A DNA stretch of 64,000 bases from Escherichia coli (lineage in GTDB: Bacteria; Pseudomonadota; Gammaproteobacteria; Enterobacterales; Enterobacteriaceae). The stretch is from the NCBI RefSeq assembly GCF_001677475.2, contig NZ_CP015229.1. One strand, 5' to 3'. Below are positions 1-53,194 of this stretch, piece by piece. The position numbers were made by a program, and so were the translations under genes. Below the pieces are notes generated by a model. That model was not told where the DNA came from and searched no databases. It saw only the letters and a program-made list of their open reading frames with translations. Each line of letters opens with the position of its first letter. Positions within the stretch are counted from its first letter, which is position 1.

Positions 1-227
<227 letters not shown>

Positions 228-356
228 TTACCCGATTCTACGAGTTGTCATTTGTTACCGGTCAGTCTACACATTTCAGATGCTGCGTTAAAAAACCCAA
301 GTACTTCAAGTAGCACATCGTCATCAACACCCAGCCCCAAGATACGGTGATAAAAT

Positions 357-1424
357 TCAAGCCTTAAGAGGCTTTGTGTATGTTCGTGTAATCCATCCAG
401 TAATAAACTCGTCCCCTGATTTAACCTGCACGAAAAGCCATTGGCGATCTTTTTTATCTAAAACAGCCACTATAGTATTTTTGCCAATGCATTCAATCAC
501 CTCACTATTTATAGAAGGACTGACGTGTAATCTTACGTTCTCACCAGTTATAAAACGAAAACCATTGAGATCTTCCCAACTAATTTCTTTGTTTTCTTTA
601 ATTAATTGTTGTTTTGATATTGGTTTATCCTCAAACAGAGATATAAAATATGATTCTGCCTTGTGTATTCCCAGCAAGGTTTTCTCTTTTCCGTAATCAA
701 TAAAAGCACCAAACACAACTTGAGAAAATATAACCATTAGTAACCATTGCAGTGGATAAGGAAGCTCTTTAAATGAATCAACAAACTTTGAGCTAGGTTT
801 ATTTAATCCTTTATTTTGAACATTACTTTTGGTGTGTGATGTTTCAGTAGCACCTTCAGCATAAGCCTGCGCAATAGATGAAATCCCCTGCTCTATTATT
901 TGATGTAATGAAGCATTTCTTGTTCTAGCATAGTGATCTAGTACTTTCTTTATGTCTTGGCTTACATCTGTTTTATAACTTGCACTTTGTTGTAATTCTT
1001 TAAGTATCGCTTGCATGTTATTTAAACCAGCTTGCTTATTAAGCACCTCAAGCTGTTTTCGTAATGGCATAGCTATTTCGGCCTGTTTCCTTAGCATTTG
1101 AATATATCTATTTGCGTCATGAGGGAAAAGAGCCTGAGTCTGTTTCTGTAAAATCGCGATATGTTCACGATACTTGCTGCCTATTCCAGCCAAGTTCGGC
1201 ATACTAGCCAATTGTTTTCGAAGAGAGTTACTAATTACAGCTTGTCTATTCAATCTTGTCATATTTTGAAAAGAATGTTTTTCTATTCCTAATTGTTTTT
1301 GCAAGATCGCTACGTGATCTTTGTATGATGGAATGAGCACTGACTGTTTATACAGTAACTTCAACTCATTAGAATTAGTAATTTTTGTCATATTATTCCA
1401 TTTATATAATAGAATATTACGCAA
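357..1424 (-). CDS. hypothetical membrane protein: KQ-rich repeats, one TM segment, C-terminal SH3b-like domain
   Basis: 355 aa ORF; repeated (H)IAILQKQ / LRKQ motifs; hydrophobic stretch LPYPLQWLLMVIFSQVVFGAF; C-terminal NVRLHVSPS...GWITRTY resembles bacterial SH3; AT-rich codon usage. Confidence 0.5.
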   Translation of the reverse strand: MRNILLYKWNNMTKITNSNELKLLYKQSVLIPSYKDHVAILQKQLGIEKHSFQNMTRLNRQAVISNSLRKQLASMPNLAGIGSKYREHIAILQKQTQALFPHDANRYIQMLRKQAEIAMPLRKQLEVLNKQAGLNNMQAILKELQQSASYKTDVSQDIKKVLDHYARTRNASLHQIIEQGISSIAQAYAEGATETSHTKSNVQNKGLNKPSSKFVDSFKELPYPLQWLLMVIFSQVVFGAFIDYGKEKTLLGIHKAESYFISLFEDKPISKQQLIKENKEISWEDLNGFRFITGENVRLHVSPSINSEVIECIGKNTIVAVLDKKDRQWLFVQVKSGDEFITGWITRTYTKPLKA

Positions 1425-1465
1425 CCAATGTTTTATTGATTGCGTTAATCTTTAACACAGAAAGA

Positions 1466-1942
1466 TCATTTGCCTCGTTTAATACATCCATCCATTTTGG
1501 CTTGTTGATACAACTTACTTAGCCCAGAAAGAGGGAATGTAGCAATTTTTTCATTATCAACATAAGCATCAATCATATTAGCATTTGAATCTGCTGCATC
1601 TTGCCAAAAGGCATACCACCAAGAATCTCCAACCATTGATCCAAGATTGCTAAAAGGATATTGCTCACCATCTATAGTTAATACTATTTTATTCTTGTCA
1701 GCATTATACTCTTTTTTATTATTCGACGAACTTAGCAACAAGCCTAAACTACCTGCACTATCTGGTGAACCATACATGAATCCCATATCACATAAAAAAC
1801 TTATCTTATCACCATTATGATTATGGATTGTATATTCTCTCCCCCCTCTCTCTTCAATTACATTCCATTGTAGAGGATCAATTTTTGCAAATGTTCCTGC
1901 TGAAACTAACGATACAAATAATAAAAACCATCTCATATTCAT
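1466..1942 (-). CDS. hypothetical secreted protein
   Basis: 158 aa ORF; N-terminal signal-peptide-like MNMRWFLLFVSLVSAGTFA; AT-rich. Confidence 0.5.
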   Translation of the reverse strand: MNMRWFLLFVSLVSAGTFAKIDPLQWNVIEERGGREYTIHNHNGDKISFLCDMGFMYGSPDSAGSLGLLLSSSNNKKEYNADKNKIVLTIDGEQYPFSNLGSMVGDSWWYAFWQDAADSNANMIDAYVDNEKIATFPLSGLSKLYQQAKMDGCIKRGK

Positions 1943-1964
1943 TCTTTTCGCTTCTTATCTGTAA

Positions 1965-2315
1965 TTATTCTGCAATATCATTTGCCCATTGCACGGCAGC
2001 AAAATGAGTACCCAAACCACTCAGGAAAGCAATTACCCCCAAAACAATACTTGCTGCTGTTGATTCAAACAAAGTACCAATACTATAGCCAATAGCTCCC
2101 CATACTAAGCTAAATACAATCATCAATGGTATTGCCAGAAATTTTATTCTTAAACTAAAAATCAGTCCAAGAAAAGAACCGCCAAAGGCCCACCATGATT
2201 TAGACATTAAACCTATCAGTATTGACAGAATTCCTATTTCAATAAAGAGAATATTAGATTGCTCTTCATTGAATTTCGCATTTGTTACACCTTTACGAAC
2301 ATGTTCAGATGACAT
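1965..2315 (-). CDS. hypothetical small integral membrane protein
   Basis: 116 aa ORF with several hydrophobic helices; first gene of the minus-strand low-GC cassette. Confidence 0.45.
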   Translation of the reverse strand: MSSEHVRKGVTNAKFNEEQSNILFIEIGILSILIGLMSKSWWAFGGSFLGLIFSLRIKFLAIPLMIVFSLVWGAIGYSIGTLFESTAASIVLGVIAFLSGLGTHFAAVQWANDIAE

Positions 2316-2461
2316 GATTAACTATCTCCTGCCACAGATAAAACGCCTTAAAATAACATTTTGTAGCATAAAGTTTCACCATGCAATGGTCAAAATCTTT
2401 GACCCATATCAATTAAACTCATACATTTTAGTTACCAGGGAAATAATTTACATGGTTACAA

Positions 2462-2478
2462 GTTGCTCTAATTATTTT
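2462..2478. promoter_or_regulatory. C1 repressor operator-like site (14/17 to ATTGCTCTAATAAATTT)
   Basis: gttgctctaattatttt in the divergent intergenic region between the cassette and the c4/icd/ant module. Confidence 0.4.
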
Positions 2479-2549
2479 ATTTTTTTAGCTTCATATGCTA
2501 CATTAACTTGCTTGCGTGCTAATGCATTTTCGGTTTATCCTAAACAGGC

Positions 2550-2627
2550 ATCTTAGTAAAATGGATGCCGGGATTGGAACCCCGGATAATGCAAAAGGCG
2601 ACACAGACGCCAAAAGCGTCTTTTTTT
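2550..2627 (+). ncRNA. c4: c4-type antisense RNA candidate (immI); ends approximate
   Basis: hairpin ccggg-attggaac-cccgg (2568-2585) then gacgc-caaaa-gcgtc + T7 terminator (2606-2627); loop complementary to gttccaa at 2730-2736 in the icd leader; block conserved with second copy at 50709-50811. Confidence 0.4.
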
Positions 2628-4238: not shown

Positions 4239-5039
4239 ATGCAACAAACATTCAATGCGGATATGAATATATCAAACCTTCATCAAAATGTCGATCCTTC
4301 AACCACTCTGCCCGTTATTTGTGGTGTTGAAATTACGACCGACCGCGCTGGCCGTTACAACCTTAATGCTCTACACAGAGCGAGCGGACTCGGTGCCCAT
4401 AAAGCGCCAGCTCAATGGCTAAGAACGCTGTCAGCCAAACAGCTCATCGAAGAGCTTGAAAAAGAAACTATGCAGAATTGCATAGTTTCGTTCGAAGGCC
4501 GTGGCGGCGGCACGTTTGCCCATGAATTGCTCGCTGTGGAGTACGCAGGCTGGATTTCTCCCGCGTTTCGGCTGAAGGTAAACCAGACATTTATCGACTA
4601 TCGAGCCGGAAGATTACAACCTGCTATTCCGCAGAGTCTCCCTGAAGCTCTCCGTTTGGCTGCCGACCTGGCAGAGCAAAAGCAACGGCTGGAGCAAAAA
4701 ATGCTTATGGATGCACCTAAAGTCGAATTCGCCGAACGCGTTGCTACCGCCAGCGGGGTTCTAATCGGCAACTATGCCAAAGTGCTCGGCCTGGGCCAAA
4801 ACTATCTCTTCACCTGGTTGCGTGATAACGGAATTCTGATCGCAACCGGTGAACGCAGGAACGTCCCCAAACAAGAATACATATCCCATGGGTATTTCAC
4901 CCTTAAAGAAACCGTGATCGATACAAGCAATGGAAGCAGGATTTCTTTCACGACTCGTATAACCGGCAAAGGTCAGCAGTGGCTGATGAAGCGATTGCTT
5001 GATGCTGGTGTGCTGGTACCTGTCGCGGCAACGCGCTAA
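4239..5039 (+). CDS. kilA: KilA (KilA-N domain plus KilAC domain)
   Basis: 266 aa; C-terminal PQSLPEALRLAADLAEQK...GKGQQWL block; followed by repL as in P1. Confidence 0.8.
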   Translation: MQQTFNADMNISNLHQNVDPSTTLPVICGVEITTDRAGRYNLNALHRASGLGAHKAPAQWLRTLSAKQLIEELEKETMQNCIVSFEGRGGGTFAHELLAVEYAGWISPAFRLKVNQTFIDYRAGRLQPAIPQSLPEALRLAADLAEQKQRLEQKMLMDAPKVEFAERVATASGVLIGNYAKVLGLGQNYLFTWLRDNGILIATGERRNVPKQEYISHGYFTLKETVIDTSNGSRISFTTRITGKGQQWLMKRLLDAGVLVPVAATR

Positions 5040-5068
5040 CAGACGTAGTAAGAACCACCAGCATTGTA

Positions 5069-5914
5069 ATGCTGGCTAAAGTCACTTTCCTGAGCTGTAT
5101 AACGATGAGCGATTTTACTTTTTCTGGCTATGAATTGGCCTGCTTTGTAACACACTCCGGTCTATCCCGTAGCGCCGGGCATATCCTGTCGCAATGTGCA
5201 AATCTCGCGGCAACAACCAGTGAATACTTCATTCACAAGCCTCACCGCCTGATCGCGGCAGAAACTGGTTATAGCCAATCAACCGTCGTTCGTGCATTCC
5301 GTGAAGCTGTAAACAAAGGAATCCTGTCGGTAGAGATTGTTATCGGCGATCACCGTGAACGCCGCGCTAACCTGTACCGGTTTACACCATCCTTTTTAGC
5401 CTTTGCTCAACAAGCCAAAAATGCGCTAATTGAAAGCAAATTAAAGATCTCTTCAGCCGCAACCAAGGTTAAAGCTGTTCTCGCTAACACATTGGCTTTA
5501 TTTGATTTTTTATCCACACCCCCATGTCAAAATGATACCCCCTCCCCCTGTCAGGATGACGTGGCAATAAAGAATAAGAAGTCACAAATTAAAAAAACAA
5601 AAAGATCAGTTTCCGGCGGTACCGGAACGACCAGCCTCAAAAAACTGACTTCATGGATCGCTGAGGCAAAAGCAAAGGCTGACAATCTGCGGTTATCCAA
5701 AAAACGCGCTCAAAAACATGAGTTCAAGCAGAAAGTAGAGGCGGCAGCGCGGAAATATGCTTACCTGAAGAACAAGCGTTCTCCTGATATTGGCGGGATA
5801 TCAAACTTCGATAATCTGCCGCATTGCATGACGGTAAACGAAGCTCTTAATGAGGTTTTAGCCAAAAATAAAGATAACGAACAATGGGGTATACCGGCAG
5901 GATTCAGAGGTTAA
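5069..5914 (+). CDS. repL: lytic replication initiator RepL
   Basis: 281 aa, position after kilA; size matches P1 RepL (from memory). Confidence 0.7.
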   Translation: MLAKVTFLSCITMSDFTFSGYELACFVTHSGLSRSAGHILSQCANLAATTSEYFIHKPHRLIAAETGYSQSTVVRAFREAVNKGILSVEIVIGDHRERRANLYRFTPSFLAFAQQAKNALIESKLKISSAATKVKAVLANTLALFDFLSTPPCQNDTPSPCQDDVAIKNKKSQIKKTKRSVSGGTGTTSLKKLTSWIAEAKAKADNLRLSKKRAQKHEFKQKVEAAARKYAYLKNKRSPDIGGISNFDNLPHCMTVNEALNEVLAKNKDNEQWGIPAGFRG

Positions 5915-5917
5915 TGA

Positions 5918-5934
5918 ATTGCTCTAATTAGAAC
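5918..5934. promoter_or_regulatory. C1 operator-like site after repL
   Basis: attgctctaattagaac. Confidence 0.5.
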
Positions 5935-6082
5935 TATACATACTTTCAACACTTCTAGTTTGCCATGAGGCAAACTCATAGGCGTCTTGGTAAGAGGACA
6001 CAGTTGCCAAAACTGGACGTCCCATTATTGCAATTAATAAACAACTAACGGACAATTCTACCTAACAATAAGTGGAGTTAAC

Positions 6083-6787
6083 ATGTTGAACCGAAGAACA
6101 TTTAATGTATTCTGCGATGAATCCTGTCACCTACTAAATGATCATAATAAAGTCATGGTATTGGGTGCGCTTTGGTGTCCAGGCACTATCACAAAAAAAA
6201 TTGCTAGAGACATCAAGGAATTAAAATTAAAACACAATCTAAAACCTGATTTCGAAATCAAGTGGACTAAAGTATCTGCGTCCAAAGTTGAATTTTACTT
6301 AGATGTCGTAGATTACTTCTTCAGCAACCCAGCATTGCGCTTTAGAGGTGTTGTTGTTCCTGATAAAGAGCAACTGGACCATGCTCGATTCCATCAAGAT
6401 CATAATACTTTCTATTATAAGATGTTTTTTTATGTCTTAAAAAACATAATAGAAAGTAACAACACATACAATATCTACCTAGATATAAAAGATACTTTAG
6501 GTATTGAAAAAATTGAGAAATTAAGAGGGGTTCTTCACAATGATCGCTATGATTACAATCATGAGTCGATAAACAGAATTCAACATATACGATCTCATGA
6601 AGTGCAACAATTGCAGCTAACGGATCTTTTCATTGGTGCGTTAGGCTACGTTCATCGAGGAATGAATAGCAACGCGGGAAAAATCCAAGTCATAAACAGG
6701 ATAAAATCACATACAAACAGGGAGTTACTAAAAAGCACTCTTCCAACAGAAAGTAAATTTAATATTTTCGTGTGGGAGGCTCGCTGA
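6083..6787 (+). CDS. hypothetical protein, DUF3800-like (N-terminal CDES motif, C-terminal QLQLTDLF motif)
   Basis: 234 aa ORF, aagtggag RBS; strongly AT-rich compared with flanking phage genes. Confidence 0.55.
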   Translation: MLNRRTFNVFCDESCHLLNDHNKVMVLGALWCPGTITKKIARDIKELKLKHNLKPDFEIKWTKVSASKVEFYLDVVDYFFSNPALRFRGVVVPDKEQLDHARFHQDHNTFYYKMFFYVLKNIIESNNTYNIYLDIKDTLGIEKIEKLRGVLHNDRYDYNHESINRIQHIRSHEVQQLQLTDLFIGALGYVHRGMNSNAGKIQVINRIKSHTNRELLKSTLPTESKFNIFVWEAR

Positions 6788-7251
6788 TGCTTCAAATGCC
6801 AGATTTATTGTACTTCAATGGAAGTTGGCAAGAGTATATAGACGATGTATATGATGTTGTCAGAGAAGATATTTTAATCTCTAATATAACGTTTAAGGGT
6901 CTCCCTGTTCGATTACGTTATTCACCGGAATATGATGGGAAAGAGTTCGGATTTTGGCATTTAGTATCAGAGGGAAAAATAGAAGAAGAACGTATACCCG
7001 ATCTTGAACGGTGCAAACGAATTCGCTGGATCGCGCATATGATAAGGAATTATAACCATTGCGATATATCATGTTGGTCTGAAAGACGAGGACCAACTGA
7101 AGAGTGGGTAATCTGGAATGAGTATGAAAACTACGTTGTTGTGCTATCCGCACGTAGAGACTATTGGCTTCTCAAAACAGCCTATGTTGTAACCTATGAC
7201 AGTAAAATCAGAACACTCAAACAAAGCAGAAAAAGAGCACTTGGGACATAA
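6787..7251 (+). CDS. hypothetical protein, partner of the DUF3800-like gene
   Basis: ATG at 6787 overlaps upstream stop (TGATG), ggagg RBS 7 nt upstream; 154 aa; AT-rich; Cys/His cluster CKRIRWIAHMIRNYNHCDISC. Confidence 0.5.
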   Translation: MLQMPDLLYFNGSWQEYIDDVYDVVREDILISNITFKGLPVRLRYSPEYDGKEFGFWHLVSEGKIEEERIPDLERCKRIRWIAHMIRNYNHCDISCWSERRGPTEEWVIWNEYENYVVVLSARRDYWLLKTAYVVTYDSKIRTLKQSRKRALGT

Positions 7252-7416
7252 AAAGCTGAACCCGACACATATTACTATGTATCGGGTTCGATCGCTCTTT
7301 CTACACATGGTAGATGAGTAAGGCAAATCTAACCGATCTACTTTAGCTTTTCAATAGCTAGCTATAACTTTCCGCACATATTCTTCTGATAATTACGGGA
7401 GAGCGGTTGGGTTTTC

Positions 7417-7713
7417 TCATGCTTTTCTGCGCAGAGAAGCACACTTATTCAGCAATAATAAATGCAATTCTTTGTTATCACTAAGTATTTCTACACACCA
7501 ATATCGTAACGTGTTCACTTCAAGTGTAGCCAGCACCTTATGTCGAAAAGCCCCCTCCCCTACACATAACGATGCCTGACATTCTGCTAAGGCACATAAC
7601 CATGTATTGGCATCATAGAGAATCCAATAATGCTCATCTGAAATAGTTATGCATCCAATTATTTCGAATCTTCTTTCTATCGTCTCAGGAGAGTATGAAA
7701 AATCAATTTCCAT
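7417..7713 (-). CDS. hypothetical protein
   Basis: 98 aa ORF between hairpin 7261-7290 and terminator 7752-7782; weak. Confidence 0.3.
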   Translation of the reverse strand: MEIDFSYSPETIERRFEIIGCITISDEHYWILYDANTWLCALAECQASLCVGEGAFRHKVLATLEVNTLRYWCVEILSDNKELHLLLLNKCASLRRKA

Positions 7714-7751
7714 AACATGCTCAAAATCTATCTATACCGGCATAATTTAAG

Positions 7752-7782
7752 CACAAAAAAGCTCCCGTAGGAGCTTTAAAAT
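7752..7782 (-). terminator. intrinsic terminator ending the structural operon
   Basis: aaagctcc-cgta-ggagcttt hairpin with flanking A/T runs. Confidence 0.5.
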
Positions 7783-7796
7783 ACAAGGGATGACTT

Positions 7797-8306
7797 TTAA
7801 TCCCACTCAATCCAGTTGTAGACGATACGAAGTGACGGGCGCACAGCAGCATTCACATCTTCGGTACTAAAGTCGATTGCATCACTGTAGATTTTGCAGT
7901 CCAACATTTCAATTGTTGTAGCAGCTTTTGTCACGGCGTTAACCCCGGAAGATTTGGATTCAGGGGTCGCAGCCATCGTGATATCAACATAGTCCTTCGC
8001 CGCAATGCGATCTTTAATGAACTGAAGAATATCGCCTTCGATAGTCTCCACGCACTGGACCTGGATTTCCCCGGAGTTACGGATTGGACCGTGCTGGTTG
8101 AACTTCACACCATTCGGGCCATAGTCCTCCACATCCTCGCGGGTCATTTCAGGGATTTGCGACGTGCGAACCAGTACGCTGATATCTTCATGGCCTGCAA
8201 AAGTGAGCTGGAATTCAGAAGATACCAGTCGTTCGCCTTTGGCCGCGTTGGCAGTATAGCGGCCCTTAATAAATTTACGGTTTCCCTTAGTGTTATTGTG
8301 CCCCAT
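7797..8306 (-). CDS. virion structural protein (possibly tail tube-like)
   Basis: 169 aa, last gene of the contiguous minus-strand structural operon. Confidence 0.5.
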   Translation of the reverse strand: MGHNNTKGNRKFIKGRYTANAAKGERLVSSEFQLTFAGHEDISVLVRTSQIPEMTREDVEDYGPNGVKFNQHGPIRNSGEIQVQCVETIEGDILQFIKDRIAAKDYVDITMAATPESKSSGVNAVTKAATTIEMLDCKIYSDAIDFSTEDVNAAVRPSLRIVYNWIEWD

Positions 8307-52342: not shown

Positions 52343-53194
52343 TTATTGCGCGCTTTCGGGGTTGTCGTTTACTGGCTGCCCCTTCTTAGTTTTACGGCTG
52401 CGCGTAACTGATGCGGCTGACTTAACCTTTTTCTCTTCGCGAGTGATGGCAATTTGTTTTTTTACATTTTCAATATCTGCCAGGCGATATATTTTTGCTT
52501 GCGGCCAGCGGTCGCAGATGATCGGTTCTATGGAGTCATAAAGGCTAAATTTTGCTTTTTCGAATTCACCGTTGATGATAATTCCATCACGGAGAGTTTC
52601 ATCGCAGATAAACACGCCACACAGTGGCACATGGTAACTAACTGATTTACCATCATTGTAGTTAGGGCTACTGGAAATGTAGTGGACGCGCAGCATTGTT
52701 TCGCTAAAGCCGTGTACGCGCATACGGAATTTTTCATCCTCTGGGTACTGCTTCATTAGCTCTTTTGTTGCTTCCAGGTTCTCTATGTATTTCGCACTGT
52801 GCTCATTGATCCCCGCGCTTTTTTGGATGCGAATGTCCTTATCAATCAGATGAATAATGCGGCCAGCGGTCATGTTGACGCTGTTCACAGCTTCTGTCTG
52901 ATAAGTCGTAACCTTACGTACACCGCGAAGGATGTTAGGCACAGGATATAAAATAGTCTTTGGGATATTGAGGTCTGGGTACTGTTCCAGTTCCCGCGCC
53001 ATTAAAGTCCATTTATCAATTTCAGCCTGAATGCTGTCTGTTTCTTTGAACGGTAGAACGACAACCGGGCGTACAGGACGACCGTCGCTGGCGGCATCAA
53101 CGTGTTGGGCGCGTGCAACAGCTTTTTTTAGAAAGAGATCCCTGAAGCTGACGAACTCCTGGTACAGTTGTTCGCCGTAGACATAATTTATCAT
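52343..53194 (-). CDS. c1: C1 primary immunity repressor
   Basis: 283 aa; length and sequence match P1 C1 as recalled; C1 operator matches across window. Confidence 0.9.
   Translation of the reverse strand: MINYVYGEQLYQEFVSFRDLFLKKAVARAQHVDAASDGRPVRPVVVLPFKETDSIQAEIDKWTLMARELEQYPDLNIPKTILYPVPNILRGVRKVTTYQTEAVNSVNMTAGRIIHLIDKDIRIQKSAGINEHSAKYIENLEATKELMKQYPEDEKFRMRVHGFSETMLRVHYISSSPNYNDGKSVSYHVPLCGVFICDETLRDGIIINGEFEKAKFSLYDSIEPIICDRWPQAKIYRLADIENVKKQIAITREEKKVKSAASVTRSRKTKKGQPVNDNPESAQ

What the first reader, a model, noticed from the sequence alone, without database searches (positions are those of the whole stretch)
6083..7251. Low-GC two-gene operon (DUF3800-like protein plus Cys/His partner) downstream of repL with a C1 operator upstream
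Two translationally coupled genes (TGATG overlap, good RBSs) with much lower GC than the flanking repL and structural genes, bounded by a C1 operator-like site (5918-5934) and a hairpin (7261-7290). Protein 1 (234 aa) has an N-terminal CDES motif and a C-terminal QLQLTDLF motif that remind me of DUF3800-type proteins; protein 2 (154 aa) has a Cys/His cluster. No characterised function is known to me for this pair. The position (where I believe P1 carries its rlfA/rlfB genes) and the operator suggest a cargo function derepressed with lytic genes, for example anti-defence or superinfection exclusion.
Basis: partly seen in the sequence, partly recalled or inferred. Interest (0 to 1): 0.65.

Follow-up and report, generated by a model that had tools for sequence, protein, structure and literature searches.

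The report
P1 rlfAB genes plus hidden sRNA
The two genes are the long-annotated but uncharacterised rlfA/rlfB of phage P1, a swappable cargo cassette of a kind usually found inside bacterial restriction-modification operons, and the "boundary hairpin" is the terminator of an unannotated small RNA that accompanies these genes across many bacterial phyla.

Summary
Window 6083-6787 and 6787-7251 are rlfA and rlfB of a P1-like phage-plasmid, 98.3% identical to P1. They are low in GC, translationally coupled, and lie behind the annotated C1 operator Orlf/Op55.

In 78 of 80 genomes from many phyla rlfA abuts rlfB. In 41 of 80 the pair lies within 3 kb of type I R-M genes, and other R-M types flank several more. 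Only 97 of 679 P1-like plasmids carry it, and knockdown does not affect P1 plating.

New here: the hairpin at 7258-7289 ends a roughly 73-nt RNA on the minus strand (7320→7248). This RNA has its own promoter, a near-invariant 5' hairpin and strong covariation, and matches no Rfam family. Every rlfB-selected locus with downstream sequence has exactly one copy.

Best reading: a three-part defence or toxin-antitoxin-like cassette with the RNA as regulator. Its function is inferred, not shown. Anti-defence and replication roles are disfavoured.

The parts
5918..5934 (+). C1 repressor operator Orlf (former Op55). It lies 4 nt after the repL stop. Only the left 11-mer, ATTGCTCTAAT, fits the consensus. 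This is a backbone feature that sits at the left breakpoint of the cargo slot.
   Evidence: It is annotated in P1 at the equivalent position. The alternative alleles keep the 11-mer and diverge directly after it.
5957..5976 (+). A perfect 8-bp hairpin (AGTTTGCC-ATGA-GGCAAACT) in the repL-rlfA spacer. No T-run follows it, and its role is unknown.
   Evidence: The leader 5935-6082 folds with a z-score of -2.6.
6028..6056 (+). Weak predicted sigma-70 promoter PrlfA: TTGCAA, 17-nt spacer, GACAAT (8 of 12 matches).
   Evidence: P1 annotates it at the equivalent position. The sequence was read. It falls below the threshold of the promoter scan.
6083..6787 (+). rlfA: a 234-aa DUF3800 protein with an RNase H2-like fold. 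Invariant residues are D12 E13 (CDESCH), E58 K60 W61, D134 K136 D137, and Q178 D181.
   Evidence: PADLOC PDC-M04A matches at E = 1e-95.
6787..7251 (+). rlfB: 154 aa, no Pfam or NCBIfam family. Near-invariant residues are F56 W57 H58, R69, R75, C76, R78, W81 and W97. The predicted alpha/beta fold weakly resembles BECR/RelE-type RNases. Its start overlaps the rlfA stop.
   Evidence: PADLOC PDC-M04B matches at E = 2e-51.
7248..7320 (-). A conserved small RNA gene of about 73 nt, unannotated in P1. It has a 5' hairpin P1 (7295-7318, CUCAUCUACC-AUG-UGUAGAAAGAG), a linker, and a 3' hairpin P2 (7258-7289). A UCAGCUUUUU tail follows and overlaps the rlfB stop codon.
   Evidence: Cross-phylum DNA conservation. 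Alignment A4 and consensus structure. Covariation controls. Covariance model R1 scores 73.9 bits, E = 6e-16, and gives the only hit in the window. Strand test. No Rfam match.
7326..7354 (-). Promoter of the small RNA: TTGAAA, 17-nt spacer, TAGATT. The -10 hexamer ends 6 nt before the first position of the RNA model.
   Evidence: Promoter scan. The same -35/-10 signal sits at a fixed distance in 80 distinct homologous loci.
7417..7713 (-). pmgF (98 aa, 38% GC). It lies inside the swapped low-GC segment (about 5929-7755). In other alleles a 198-aa ORF replaces it, whose N-terminus is 42-44% identical. It is not linked to rlfAB outside P1-like elements.

Best explanation
The locus is a self-contained three-part cargo cassette that P1 carries in a swappable slot between repL and the baseplate genes. 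It consists of rlfA, rlfB and a convergent small RNA of about 73 nt.

**Shown by sequence analysis**
- RlfA is an RNase H2-fold protein with a complete set of conserved acidic residues.
- RlfB is made in step with RlfA through a conserved stop/start overlap. It carries a conserved His/Arg patch.
- The small RNA has its own constitutive-type promoter, a nearly invariant 5' hairpin and a terminator hairpin.
- The RNA accompanies every rlfB found.

**Inferred**
- The cassette is an anti-phage, abortive-infection or toxin-antitoxin-like module of the kind bacteria embed in restriction-modification operons.
- RlfA and RlfB form a nuclease complex.
- The RNA binds that complex through its conserved hairpin and holds it in check or programmes it.
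- Loss of the short-lived RNA, or an infection signal, unleashes RNA or RNA:DNA cleavage that stops the invader or the cell.
- In P1 the genes are probably read through from the C1-controlled kilA-repL promoter on derepression, and only weakly from their own promoter in the lysogen.
For: **Identity**
- 98.3% nt identity to P1 rlfA/rlfB.
- PADLOC PDC-M04A at 1e-95 and PDC-M04B at 2e-51.
- PDC systems are "guilt-by-embedding" predictions that have not been tested (bioRxiv 10.1101/2024.01.29.577857).

**Folds**
- Invariant D12/E13, D134 and D181.
- H58 is 100% conserved, R75 99%, R78 96% and R69 95% across 147 representatives.

**Linkage**
- rlfA lies directly upstream of rlfB in 78 of 80 genome loci; the other two are cut by contig ends.
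- The stop/start overlap is 1 or 4 nt in 54 of 78 loci.

**Context**
- hsd genes lie within 3 kb in 41 of 80 loci and on both sides in 21.
- Other loci are flanked by type IIG or type III R-M genes, DUF1156 methyltransferase with a PLD helicase, or SIR2/pAgo-like genes.

**Cargo status**
- 97 of 679 P1-like plasmid records carry the pair. Alternative alleles carry hokD, Ail/Lom or other ORFs.
- CRISPRi knockdown gives EOP 1.3 for rlfA and 0.88 for rlfB (PMC10695390).
- 302 relatives were found in 100,044 species genomes, against 28 in 2.9 million viral contigs, of which 16 share 93-99% identity with P1 RlfB.

**Small RNA**
- 96.3% of cells pair, against 83% when shuffled and at most 51% when slid.
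- 16 of 19 pairs show compensatory changes; 0 of 500 shuffles reach the observed values.
- 111 G·U cells on this strand against 8 on the other.
- The promoter sits at a fixed distance.
- There is exactly one hit per rlfB-bearing locus (92/92, 20/20) and none in alleles lacking rlfAB.
- Five loci have the RNA co-directional with rlfB, which argues for action in trans.
- The RNA occurs without rlfAB in 25 metagenome loci, but an intact rlfB was never found without the RNA. P1-like contigs that lost the rlfB 3' half also lost the RNA and kept rlfA.
Against: - No experiment supports defence. PDC-M04 is only a prediction, and at least one other PDC candidate gave no protection when tested (PMC12409345).
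- The RelE/BECR likeness of RlfB is weak. Foldseek finds nothing at E <= 0.001, and profile comparisons with RelE, YoeB and YafQ are null.
- RlfA's likeness to RNase H2 is structural only. Its catalytic residues are assigned from motif position, not from a superposition.
- The RNA also sits beside unrelated genes (a PIN-like PDC-S70 gene, methyltransferases). It may therefore be a general module rather than a dedicated RlfAB partner.
- One draft genome has a frameshifted rlfA with an intact rlfB, and one genome has the reverse. Neither protein therefore looks toxic on its own, which does not fit a simple toxin-antitoxin pair.
- In P1 the cassette lies behind a C1 operator and has only a weak promoter of its own. 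That is unusual for a defence system meant to protect the lysogen.
- No transcript data were examined.
Confidence: 0.5

Rival explanations
1. Replication accessory (the historical "replication-linked function"). RlfA would be an RNase H-like enzyme that processes the transcript or R-loop at the transcription-activated lytic origin oriL inside repL. RlfB would assist it.
For: - The genes lie immediately downstream of repL/oriL with no terminator between them.
- RlfA has an RNase H2-like fold.
- The genes are grouped with early replication genes in a P1vir transcriptome (bioRxiv 10.64898/2025.12.28.696737).
- The PHROG and RefSeq label for rlfB is "replication protein".
Against: - Knockdown has no effect on plating.
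- 582 of 679 P1-like plasmid records with the same repL-bplB backbone do not carry the full rlfAB region.
- None of the homologous genome loci examined carries repL. They sit mostly in R-M operons of unrelated bacteria.
- The replication label comes from position only (note: "possibly associated with lytic replication").
Confidence: 0.07
2. Pure addiction module. The cassette would be a toxin-antitoxin system whose only role is to stabilise whatever carries it (the P1 plasmid or an R-M operon), with no anti-phage function. RlfB would be the toxin and the small RNA the antitoxin, with or without RlfA.
For: - The same slot in other P1-like plasmids holds hokD, a type I toxin.
- The architecture is a constitutive small RNA plus a putative RNase.
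- An intact rlfB is never found without the RNA, whereas the RNA and rlfA can each stand alone.
- Toxin-antitoxin pairs (MazE/PIN, MNT/HEPN-like) sit in the same hsd operons.
Against: - P1 already carries phd/doc (own knowledge; Pfeifer and Rocha also list it).
- Embedding in R-M, BREX-like and pAgo neighbourhoods is the signature that has predicted working defence systems.
- The highly conserved 234-aa enzyme RlfA has no place in a minimal toxin-antitoxin model.
- This rival overlaps the best explanation rather than excluding it.
Confidence: 0.2
3. Anti-defence cargo (one of the first reader's options). The proteins would disable a host immune system during P1 lytic growth.
For: - The genes lie behind a C1 operator, among early lytic genes.
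- They are nonessential on a laboratory host that lacks many defences.
Against: - The family is mostly chromosomal and is co-transcribed inside host R-M operons, with the hsdS stop overlapping the rlfA start.
- It is rare in viral contigs other than P1-likes.
- It is catalogued by PADLOC as a defence candidate.
Confidence: 0.04
4. The conserved element downstream of rlfB is not a functional RNA partner. It would be only a bidirectional terminator or insulator, or a DNA-level recombination site that marks the cassette end.
For: - It sits at the cassette's 3' edge and, in P1, between convergent genes.
- The same element occurs next to unrelated cassettes.
- G·T wobble also forms in folded single-stranded DNA (own knowledge).
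Against: - A sigma-70 promoter sits at a fixed distance in 80 distinct loci.
- The 5' hairpin is nearly sequence-invariant across phyla, which a terminator does not need.
- In five loci the P1 hairpin loop holds an extra stem.
- The element is kept even where rlfB stops earlier, so the tail is non-coding.
- The cargo-slot breakpoints in P1-like plasmids lie elsewhere, near 5929 and 7755.
Confidence: 0.12

Closest known systems
Phage P1 rlfA/rlfB (P7 rapA/rapB)
   Same: Same genes. The 1451 bp spanning both are 98.3% identical to P1 and 98.0% to P7, with the same flanks (repL, Orlf/Op55, pmgF, bplB).
   Different: Nothing differs at the gene level. The P1 record annotates no RNA at complement(52905..52977), where the small RNA lies.
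PADLOC phage-defence candidate PDC-M04 (Payne et al. 2024 preprint, guilt-by-embedding)
   Same: Both proteins match the A and B models strongly and are adjacent on one strand. The embedding in R-M operons was reproduced here independently.
   Different: PDC-M04 is defined as two proteins. No paper in the held library names it or tests it. The RNA component is not part of the definition.
DUF3800-associated RNA motifs (DUF3800-I to -XI; Weinberg et al. 2017, PMC5737381)
   Same: A highly conserved structured RNA lies next to a DUF3800 gene, in either orientation, and ends in a terminator hairpin. That is the situation the paper describes.
   Different: No Rfam 15 family matches this RNA, and the library includes DUF3800-I and -IX. 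This holds even at E <= 10 on 201-nt stretches. The paper's supplement could not be read, so identity with a motif absent from Rfam cannot be excluded. The RNA here is also found beside non-DUF3800 genes.
Retron type VII (RT + ncRNA + DUF3800 effector; Mestre et al. 2020, PMC7736814)
   Same: A DUF3800, RNase H2-like protein teamed with a structured non-coding RNA in a predicted defence system.
   Different: There is no reverse transcriptase in the window. RlfA keeps the Q of the QxxD motif, which the retron proteins lack. The partner protein RlfB is absent from retrons.
PrrC anticodon nuclease in the EcoprrI type I R-M operon
   Same: It occupies the same place, between hsdS and hsdR, and is co-transcribed with the R-M genes. 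PrrC is the textbook case of a latent RNase that guards an R-M system.
   Different: RlfA and RlfB have no ABC-ATPase domain and no PrrC nuclease domain. No trigger is known. The P1 copy is not next to an R-M system.
Type III toxin-antitoxin/abortive-infection systems (ToxIN-like; own knowledge)
   Same: The proposed logic is the same: a constitutively made, structured RNA restrains an endoribonuclease, and the protein is never found without its RNA.
   Different: ToxI-type antitoxins are tandem repeats upstream of the toxin and are processed by it. Here there is a single hairpin RNA with its own promoter, usually antisense at the 3' end, plus a second enzyme (RlfA).
RNase H2/HII
   Different: No sequence-level similarity was found. 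Substrate and activity are unknown.

Membership tests
P1 rlfA/rlfB orthologues | Near-identical sequence in the same position between repL and pmgF/bplB of a P1-like element | tested here: met
   98.3% identity over 1451 bp to P1, with the same flanking genes.
Pfam DUF3800 (PF12686) | Match to the family HMM, with an N-terminal DE motif and a C-terminal QxxD motif | tested here: met
   E = 5.2e-14 over residues 8-189. D12-E13 and Q178-x-x-D181 are invariant in 26 homologues.
PADLOC PDC-M04 (candidate system) | Adjacent genes matching the PDC-M04A and PDC-M04B models | tested here: met
   A at 1e-95 and B at 2.1e-51, with overlapping genes on one strand.
PADLOC PDC-M04 (candidate system) | Protects cells against phage | not testable with these tools
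   No experimental report was found.
RNase H2/HII enzymes | RNase H fold with a DEDD catalytic set | tested here: inconclusive
RNase H2/HII enzymes | Cleaves RNA in RNA:DNA hybrids | not testable with these tools
   Needs a biochemical assay.
RelE/ParE and BECR-fold RNase toxins | Characteristic alpha-beta fold with a basic/His active site on the sheet | tested here: inconclusive
Type II toxin-antitoxin pair | Small labile protein antitoxin with a DNA-binding domain that neutralises the adjacent toxin; the toxin is never found intact without it | tested here: not met
   RlfA is a 234-aa enzyme-like protein and is more conserved than RlfB in 73 of 75 loci. Natural loci exist with rlfA frameshifted and rlfB intact, and the reverse.
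Type I toxin-antitoxin | Antisense RNA against the mRNA of a small hydrophobic toxin peptide | tested here: not met
   The RNA is antisense to the 3' end of rlfB in most loci. However, RlfB is a 154-aa soluble-looking protein, and five loci have the RNA co-directional.
Type III toxin-antitoxin (ToxIN-like) | Tandem-repeat antitoxin RNA upstream of, and processed by, an endoribonuclease toxin | tested here: not met
   The RNA is single-copy, has its own promoter and terminator, and lies downstream. Processing is not testable.
Rfam DUF3800-I...XI and all other Rfam 15 families | Covariance-model match to the RNA | tested here: not met
   No match at E <= 1 on 5000-8000 or at E <= 10 on 7200-7400. 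None for the typical variant in L050. None at gathering score in 20 homologous loci.
PrrC/RloC-type R-M-embedded anticodon nucleases | ABC-ATPase N-domain plus a C-terminal anticodon-nuclease domain, embedded in an hsd operon | tested here: not met
   Homologues meet the embedding criterion (41 of 80 loci). No PADLOC, Pfam or NCBIfam match to PrrC or RloC was found.
Retron type VII | Reverse transcriptase plus msr/msd ncRNA plus a DUF3800 protein | tested here: not met
   No RT ORF lies in the cassette. An RT does sit next to rlfA in one homologous locus, L010.

The most novel reading that the evidence does not exclude
rlfA, rlfB and the small RNA form a new type of RNA-controlled immune or abortive-infection system. 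A nearly sequence-invariant hairpin RNA, conserved across bacterial phyla and in one archaeal MAG, would act as antidote or cofactor of an RNase H2-like/BECR-like nuclease pair. The same RNA family would serve other candidate defence cassettes, such as PDC-S70 and other DUF3800 proteins. That would explain the long-standing puzzle of the structured RNAs that accompany DUF3800 genes. Phage P1 in E. coli would be a ready-made model for testing it.
Probability: 0.35. Interest if true: 0.8.

Novelty: new variant of a known kind. Interest (0 to 1): 0.62.

Why it matters
rlfA and rlfB have sat in the genome of one of the best-studied phages for two decades with only a positional guess at their role. 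This work places them in a widespread, untested family of genes embedded in R-M operons. It gives fold-level predictions with named residues to mutate.

It also shows that the family includes an unannotated small RNA. That RNA is more conserved than either protein and is present in every rlfB-selected locus with downstream sequence.

DUF3800 proteins are known to associate with retrons, with Cas12a2/a3 and type VI-F CRISPR loci, and with eleven unexplained RNA motifs. No mechanism is known for any of them. A three-part version that lives on P1 in E. coli makes the question directly testable with standard genetics.

The result also flags a cargo slot in P1-like phage-plasmids, which spread resistance genes in Enterobacteria.

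Tried and rejected
- **Rfam for the leader, the hairpin and homologous loci.** Nothing was found.
- **Sequence-level links.** RlfB against solved structures gave only an insignificant antitoxin hit at E = 1.3. RlfA against solved structures gave nothing meaningful. hhalign of RlfB against RelE, YoeB and YafQ, and of RlfA against E. coli RNase HII, were all null.
- **NCBIfam.** No family matched either protein. The RefSeq names "oxidoreductase" and "replication protein" for RlfB have no support.
- **Zinc-finger reading of the Cys/His cluster.** Rejected, because the residues are not conserved.
- **Gene fusion as evidence of interaction.** The single "fusion" (L121) is a deletion derivative joining RlfA 1-114 to RlfB 15-153.
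- **PDC-S70 protein as a distant RlfB homologue.** Rejected: hhalign probability 11%, and the protein looks PIN-like.
- **pmgF as a system component.** Rejected: it is absent from all non-P1 loci.
- **A small ORF in the RNA.** Rejected: RNA lengths vary by non-multiples of three, and the stems covary.
- **Trans base-pairing of the RNA to the rlfAB mRNA.** The longest complementary run is 8 nt, so there is no support.
- **Literature searches.** Searches for PDC-M04 and for the RNA sequence found nothing relevant. The Lobocka 2004 P1 genome paper and the Weinberg 2017 supplement could not be read.
Full report
**1. What is at the coordinates**

- The window is a P1-like phage-plasmid.
- ORFs at 6083-6787 (234 aa) and 6787-7251 (154 aa) share one base between the TGA stop and the ATG start. 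Each has a good RBS.
- The 1451 bp around them are 98.3% identical to phage P1. There the genes are rlfA and rlfB, noted as "possibly associated with lytic replication"; in P7 they are rapA and rapB.
Only its left 11-mer fits the consensus.
- GC content is 35.0% for rlfA and 38.5% for rlfB, against 45-51% for the flanking backbone genes.
- The hairpin at 7258-7289 is real.

**2. The proteins**

RlfA
- It matches Pfam DUF3800 (E = 5e-14).
- The family is large: 5464 hits in the word-indexed search.
- It is very conserved, still 52-55% identical in Bacteroidota and Nitrospirota.
- Invariant residues are D12 E13 S14 C15 H16, E58 K60 W61, D134 K136 D137, and Q178/D181.
- This agrees with published remarks on DUF3800 (PMC7736814, PMC10910872).
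- The acidic residues sit where the RNase H catalytic set sits: the end of strand 1, the end of strand 4, and a C-terminal helix. That assignment is an inference. I could not superpose coordinates, and sequence-level comparisons are null.

RlfB
- It has no Pfam or NCBIfam family.
- The family is nevertheless large: 1790 representatives at 50% clustering.
- Across 147 representatives, with median identity 33% to the window protein, H58 is invariant. R75, F56, R78, W81, R69 and W97 are at least 94% conserved, and C76 is 90%.
- The model is confident (pLDDT 92).
- Foldseek finds nothing significant. I treat "RNase-toxin-like" as a lead worth about even odds.

**3. Where the pair lives**

- A scan of one genome per species found 302 relatives of RlfB in 100,044 genomes. 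They span many bacterial phyla and include one archaeal MAG.
- In the 80 loci fetched, rlfA lies directly upstream on the same strand in 78. The other two are cut by contig ends.
- The rlfB start overlaps the rlfA stop by 1 or 4 nt in 54 of 78 loci. RlfA is the more conserved partner in 73 of 75.
- Type I R-M genes lie within 3 kb in 41 of 80 loci and on both sides in 21. The typical order is hsdM-hsdS-rlfA-rlfB-hsdR, with the hsdS stop overlapping the rlfA start.
- Among 15 sampled loci without hsd hits, the neighbours include:
  - type IIG R-M with an Snf2 helicase;
  - type III R-M;
  - a DUF1156 methyltransferase with a PLD helicase;
  - SIR2/pAgo-like and DpdF-like genes.
- Individual examples are an Anaerolineales hsd operon that also holds MazE/PIN, an Algoriphagus element with an RT and a pAgo, and a Citrobacter P4-like satellite carrying rhuM-rlfA-rlfB-symE.
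- Both proteins match PADLOC's candidate PDC-M04 (1e-95 and 2e-51).
- PDC systems were predicted by "guilt-by-embedding" and were not tested. No paper in the library mentions PDC-M04.
- Viral contigs hold only 28 relatives, of which 16 share 93-99% identity with P1 RlfB.

**4. Status in P1-like elements**

- Of 679 plasmid records that match the repL-bplB stretch, 97 carry at least 80% of it, which includes rlfAB.
- In most of the sampled rows (33 of 60), window positions about 5929-7755 are replaced by other cassettes:
  - an 81-aa ORF plus hokD;
  - an 81-aa ORF plus a 198-aa ORF;
  - Ail/Lom plus the 198-aa ORF.
- A published comparison noted the same substitutions (PMC6906374).
- 120 of 5426 complete E. 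coli genomes have rlfAB, almost always on plasmids of about 90-100 kb.
- CRISPRi knockdown of rlfA or rlfB leaves P1 plating unchanged (EOP 1.3 and 0.88; PMC10695390).
- The left breakpoint falls directly after the operator's conserved 11-mer, which the other alleles keep. The operator therefore belongs to the backbone, not to this cargo.
- No terminator separates repL from rlfA. P1's predicted PrlfA matches the consensus at only 8 of 12 positions. Expression mainly by read-through from the C1-controlled kilA-repL promoter is plausible, but it is inferred.

**5. The unexpected part: a small RNA gene**

Conservation
- The first 70-90 nt after the rlfB stop are conserved at the DNA level in almost every locus (1116 significant blastn pairs among 79 sequences).
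- Between the window and Biostraticola they are 89.6% identical, although RlfB itself is only 66% identical.

Layout on the strand opposite to rlfAB
- A -35/-10 promoter comes first.
- Then comes a 5' hairpin whose consensus CUCAUCUACC-AUG-UGUAGAAGGAG is almost invariant across phyla.
- A short linker and a second hairpin of variable sequence follow.
- The RNA ends in the tail UCAGC(C)UUUU.
The promoter scan had already flagged TTGAAA-17-TAGATT on the minus strand at 7354..7326.

Structure
- On an alignment of 56 distinct sequences chosen through RlfB, not through the RNA, RNAalifold predicts two helices.
- 96.3% of cells form standard pairs, against 83.2% after shuffling and at most 51% when partners are slid.
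- 16 of 19 pairs, covering 130 cells, show changes on both sides. None of 500 shuffles reaches any observed measure.

Strand
- The strand given has 111 G·U cells. The opposite strand has 8 and pairs only 86.5%.

Promoter
- In 80 distinct upstream regions the best promoter has a 17-nt spacer in 58.

Variants and specificity
- In five loci the P1 hairpin loop holds an extra stem.
- A covariance model finds exactly one copy in each rlfB-bearing source that has downstream sequence (92/92, 20/20).
- It finds none in the alternative P1 alleles and nothing elsewhere in the 64-kb window or in 1.3 Mb of flanks.
- In P1 itself the RNA lies at complement(52905..52977), where the record has no feature.

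Prior knowledge
- No Rfam 15 family matches, and the library includes DUF3800-I and DUF3800-IX.
- Weinberg et al. described eleven unrelated RNA motifs near DUF3800 genes, several ending in terminators, with function unknown. This RNA fits that pattern.
- It may be a further member. I could not read their supplement, so prior description under another name cannot be excluded.

**6. How tightly the RNA is tied to the proteins**

- An exact-match metagenome scan for the 5' hairpin gave at least 120 stretches.
- Of the 80 loci read:
  - 46 have rlfB convergent and adjacent;
  - 5 have it adjacent in another register or orientation;
  - 4 have no room to tell;
  - 25 have the RNA, complete with terminator, but no rlfA or rlfB.
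- Neighbours in those 25 loci include a PIN-like PDC-S70 gene beside an HmaB/DUF1156 methyltransferase, a DUF3800_VII-like fragment, a nucleotidyltransferase-like gene and methyltransferases.
- The RNA is co-directional with rlfB in L115, L116, L118, L135 and L191. Antisense overlap is therefore not required, which points to action in trans.
- Natural decay gives an asymmetry:
  - The RNA occurs alone.
  - rlfA occurs alone. Two P1-like contigs lost the rlfB 3' half and the RNA together.
  - rlfB carries a W57-stop in Methylomonas, with rlfA and the RNA kept.
  - An intact rlfB without the RNA was never seen.
  - One draft genome has a frameshifted rlfA with rlfB and the RNA intact.

**7. Most likely mechanism**

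I read the locus as a three-component cassette of the defence or toxin-antitoxin world.

- RlfA and RlfB are co-translated and probably form a complex.
- RlfA is predicted to be a metal-dependent RNase H-type nuclease.
- RlfB provides an RNA-binding or RNA-cleaving His/Arg site.
- The small RNA is made constitutively and is recognised through its invariant hairpin. It would act as antidote or cofactor.
- Infection, or loss of the element, would lower the RNA level or deliver a trigger and free the nuclease activity.

What is shown by sequence analysis:
- the anatomy of the locus;
- the conservation of its parts;
- the genomic contexts;
- the covariation in the RNA;
- the strict co-occurrence of rlfB and the RNA.

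What is inferred:
- the protein complex;
- the enzymatic activities;
- the direction of control;
- the biological role.

The position inside R-M operons resembles PrrC. The RNA-restrains-RNase logic resembles type III toxin-antitoxin systems. The DUF3800-plus-ncRNA pairing resembles retron type VII. The locus fails the defining features of each (see the membership table). It works like them at most and is not a member.

**8. Rivals**

- **A replication role.** It is disfavoured by dispensability, by absence from most P1-like plasmids, and by a distribution centred on R-M operons.
- **Anti-defence.** It is disfavoured for the same distributional reasons.
- **A pure addiction module.** It remains possible and overlaps my reading. 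hokD occupies the same slot in other plasmids.
- **The conserved element as only a terminator or recombination site.** This is hard to square with the fixed promoter, the invariant 5' hairpin and the G·U strand bias.

**9. Novelty and verdict**

- The genes themselves are already known and already listed as a candidate defence system.
- What is new is:
  - the strictly linked small RNA, missing from the P1 record and from Rfam;
  - the fold-level picture of both proteins;
  - the cargo-slot context.
- I rate it a new variant of a known but uncharacterised kind: a DUF3800 protein with an associated RNA, embedded in R-M operons as a defence candidate.
- Interest is moderate to high. The reason is that it turns an open question into simple experiments in E. 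coli and P1.

Noticed in passing
window 5929-7755: This is a swappable cargo slot in P1-like plasmids. The left breakpoint lies directly after the 11-nt core of the C1 operator Op55, and the right breakpoint lies between pmgF and bplB. Alternative fillings are an 81-aa ORF plus hokD, an 81-aa ORF plus a 198-aa ORF, or Ail/Lom plus the 198-aa ORF.
   Followed up: partly
window 7417-7713 (-), pmgF: pmgF shares the low GC (38%) of the cassette. Its first 64 residues are 42-44% identical to the N-terminus of the 198-aa ORF that replaces it in other alleles. Its "morphogenetic" label is positional only.
   Followed up: partly
L154:48-668, L192:8447-9294, L124, L134, L166, L196, L200 and others (metagenome loci): The same small-RNA family (5' hairpin plus terminator) occurs without rlfAB. 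Its neighbours there include a PIN-like PDC-S70 gene next to an HmaB/DUF1156 methyltransferase, a DUF3800_VII-like fragment, a nucleotidyltransferase-like gene and methyltransferases. The RNA may be a shared module of several candidate defence cassettes.
   Followed up: partly
L045, L047, L075, L077, L086 (just downstream of rlfB): These RNA variants carry an extra stem of about 15-25 nt in place of the 5-nt P1 hairpin loop. They score lower with the model (40-45 bits).
   Followed up: no
L008:10633-11175 and L009 (Methylomonas sp. 11b): rlfB carries a single in-frame stop at the invariant W57 codon. rlfA and the small RNA are intact. The stop is seen in two independent assemblies.
   Followed up: yes
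L109, L110 (P1-like viral contigs); L121:5695-6555; L014:9283-9992: These are decayed versions. In L109 and L110 rlfB is cut at residue 82 and the RNA is lost while rlfA stays intact. L121 has an in-frame deletion fusing RlfA 1-114 to RlfB 15-153. L014, a draft genome, has a frameshifted rlfA with intact rlfB and RNA.
   Followed up: partly
L010:8470-17617 (Algoriphagus pacificus): An integrative element carries hsdM/S, a reverse transcriptase (RVT_1), rlfA, rlfB, hsdR, a 325-aa ORF and a Piwi-domain pAgo in one co-directional block.
   Followed up: no
L004:615-10465 (Citrobacter, Logan assembly): A P4-like satellite (Psu, Ogr/Delta, AlpA, D5-type primase) carries rhuM-rlfA-rlfB followed by symE.
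   Followed up: no
window, whole: There are fifteen matches to the 17-nt C1 operator consensus at up to 3 mismatches, against 0.32 expected. They include the overlapping pair at 23864-23891. Op55 is not among them, because its right half diverges.
   Followed up: no
window 200-2600: A second low-GC block (31-39%) corresponds by offset to P1 pmgC and the sim superimmunity operon.
   Followed up: no
window 6787-7251 (rlfB) in public records: RefSeq and NCBI name this protein "oxidoreductase", "replication protein" or "hypothetical protein". No Pfam or NCBIfam match supports any of these names.
   Followed up: yes
window 5957-5976: A perfect 8-bp hairpin lies in the repL-rlfA spacer, between Op55 and the weak rlfA promoter. 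The sequence is also present in P1, and its role is unknown.
   Followed up: no
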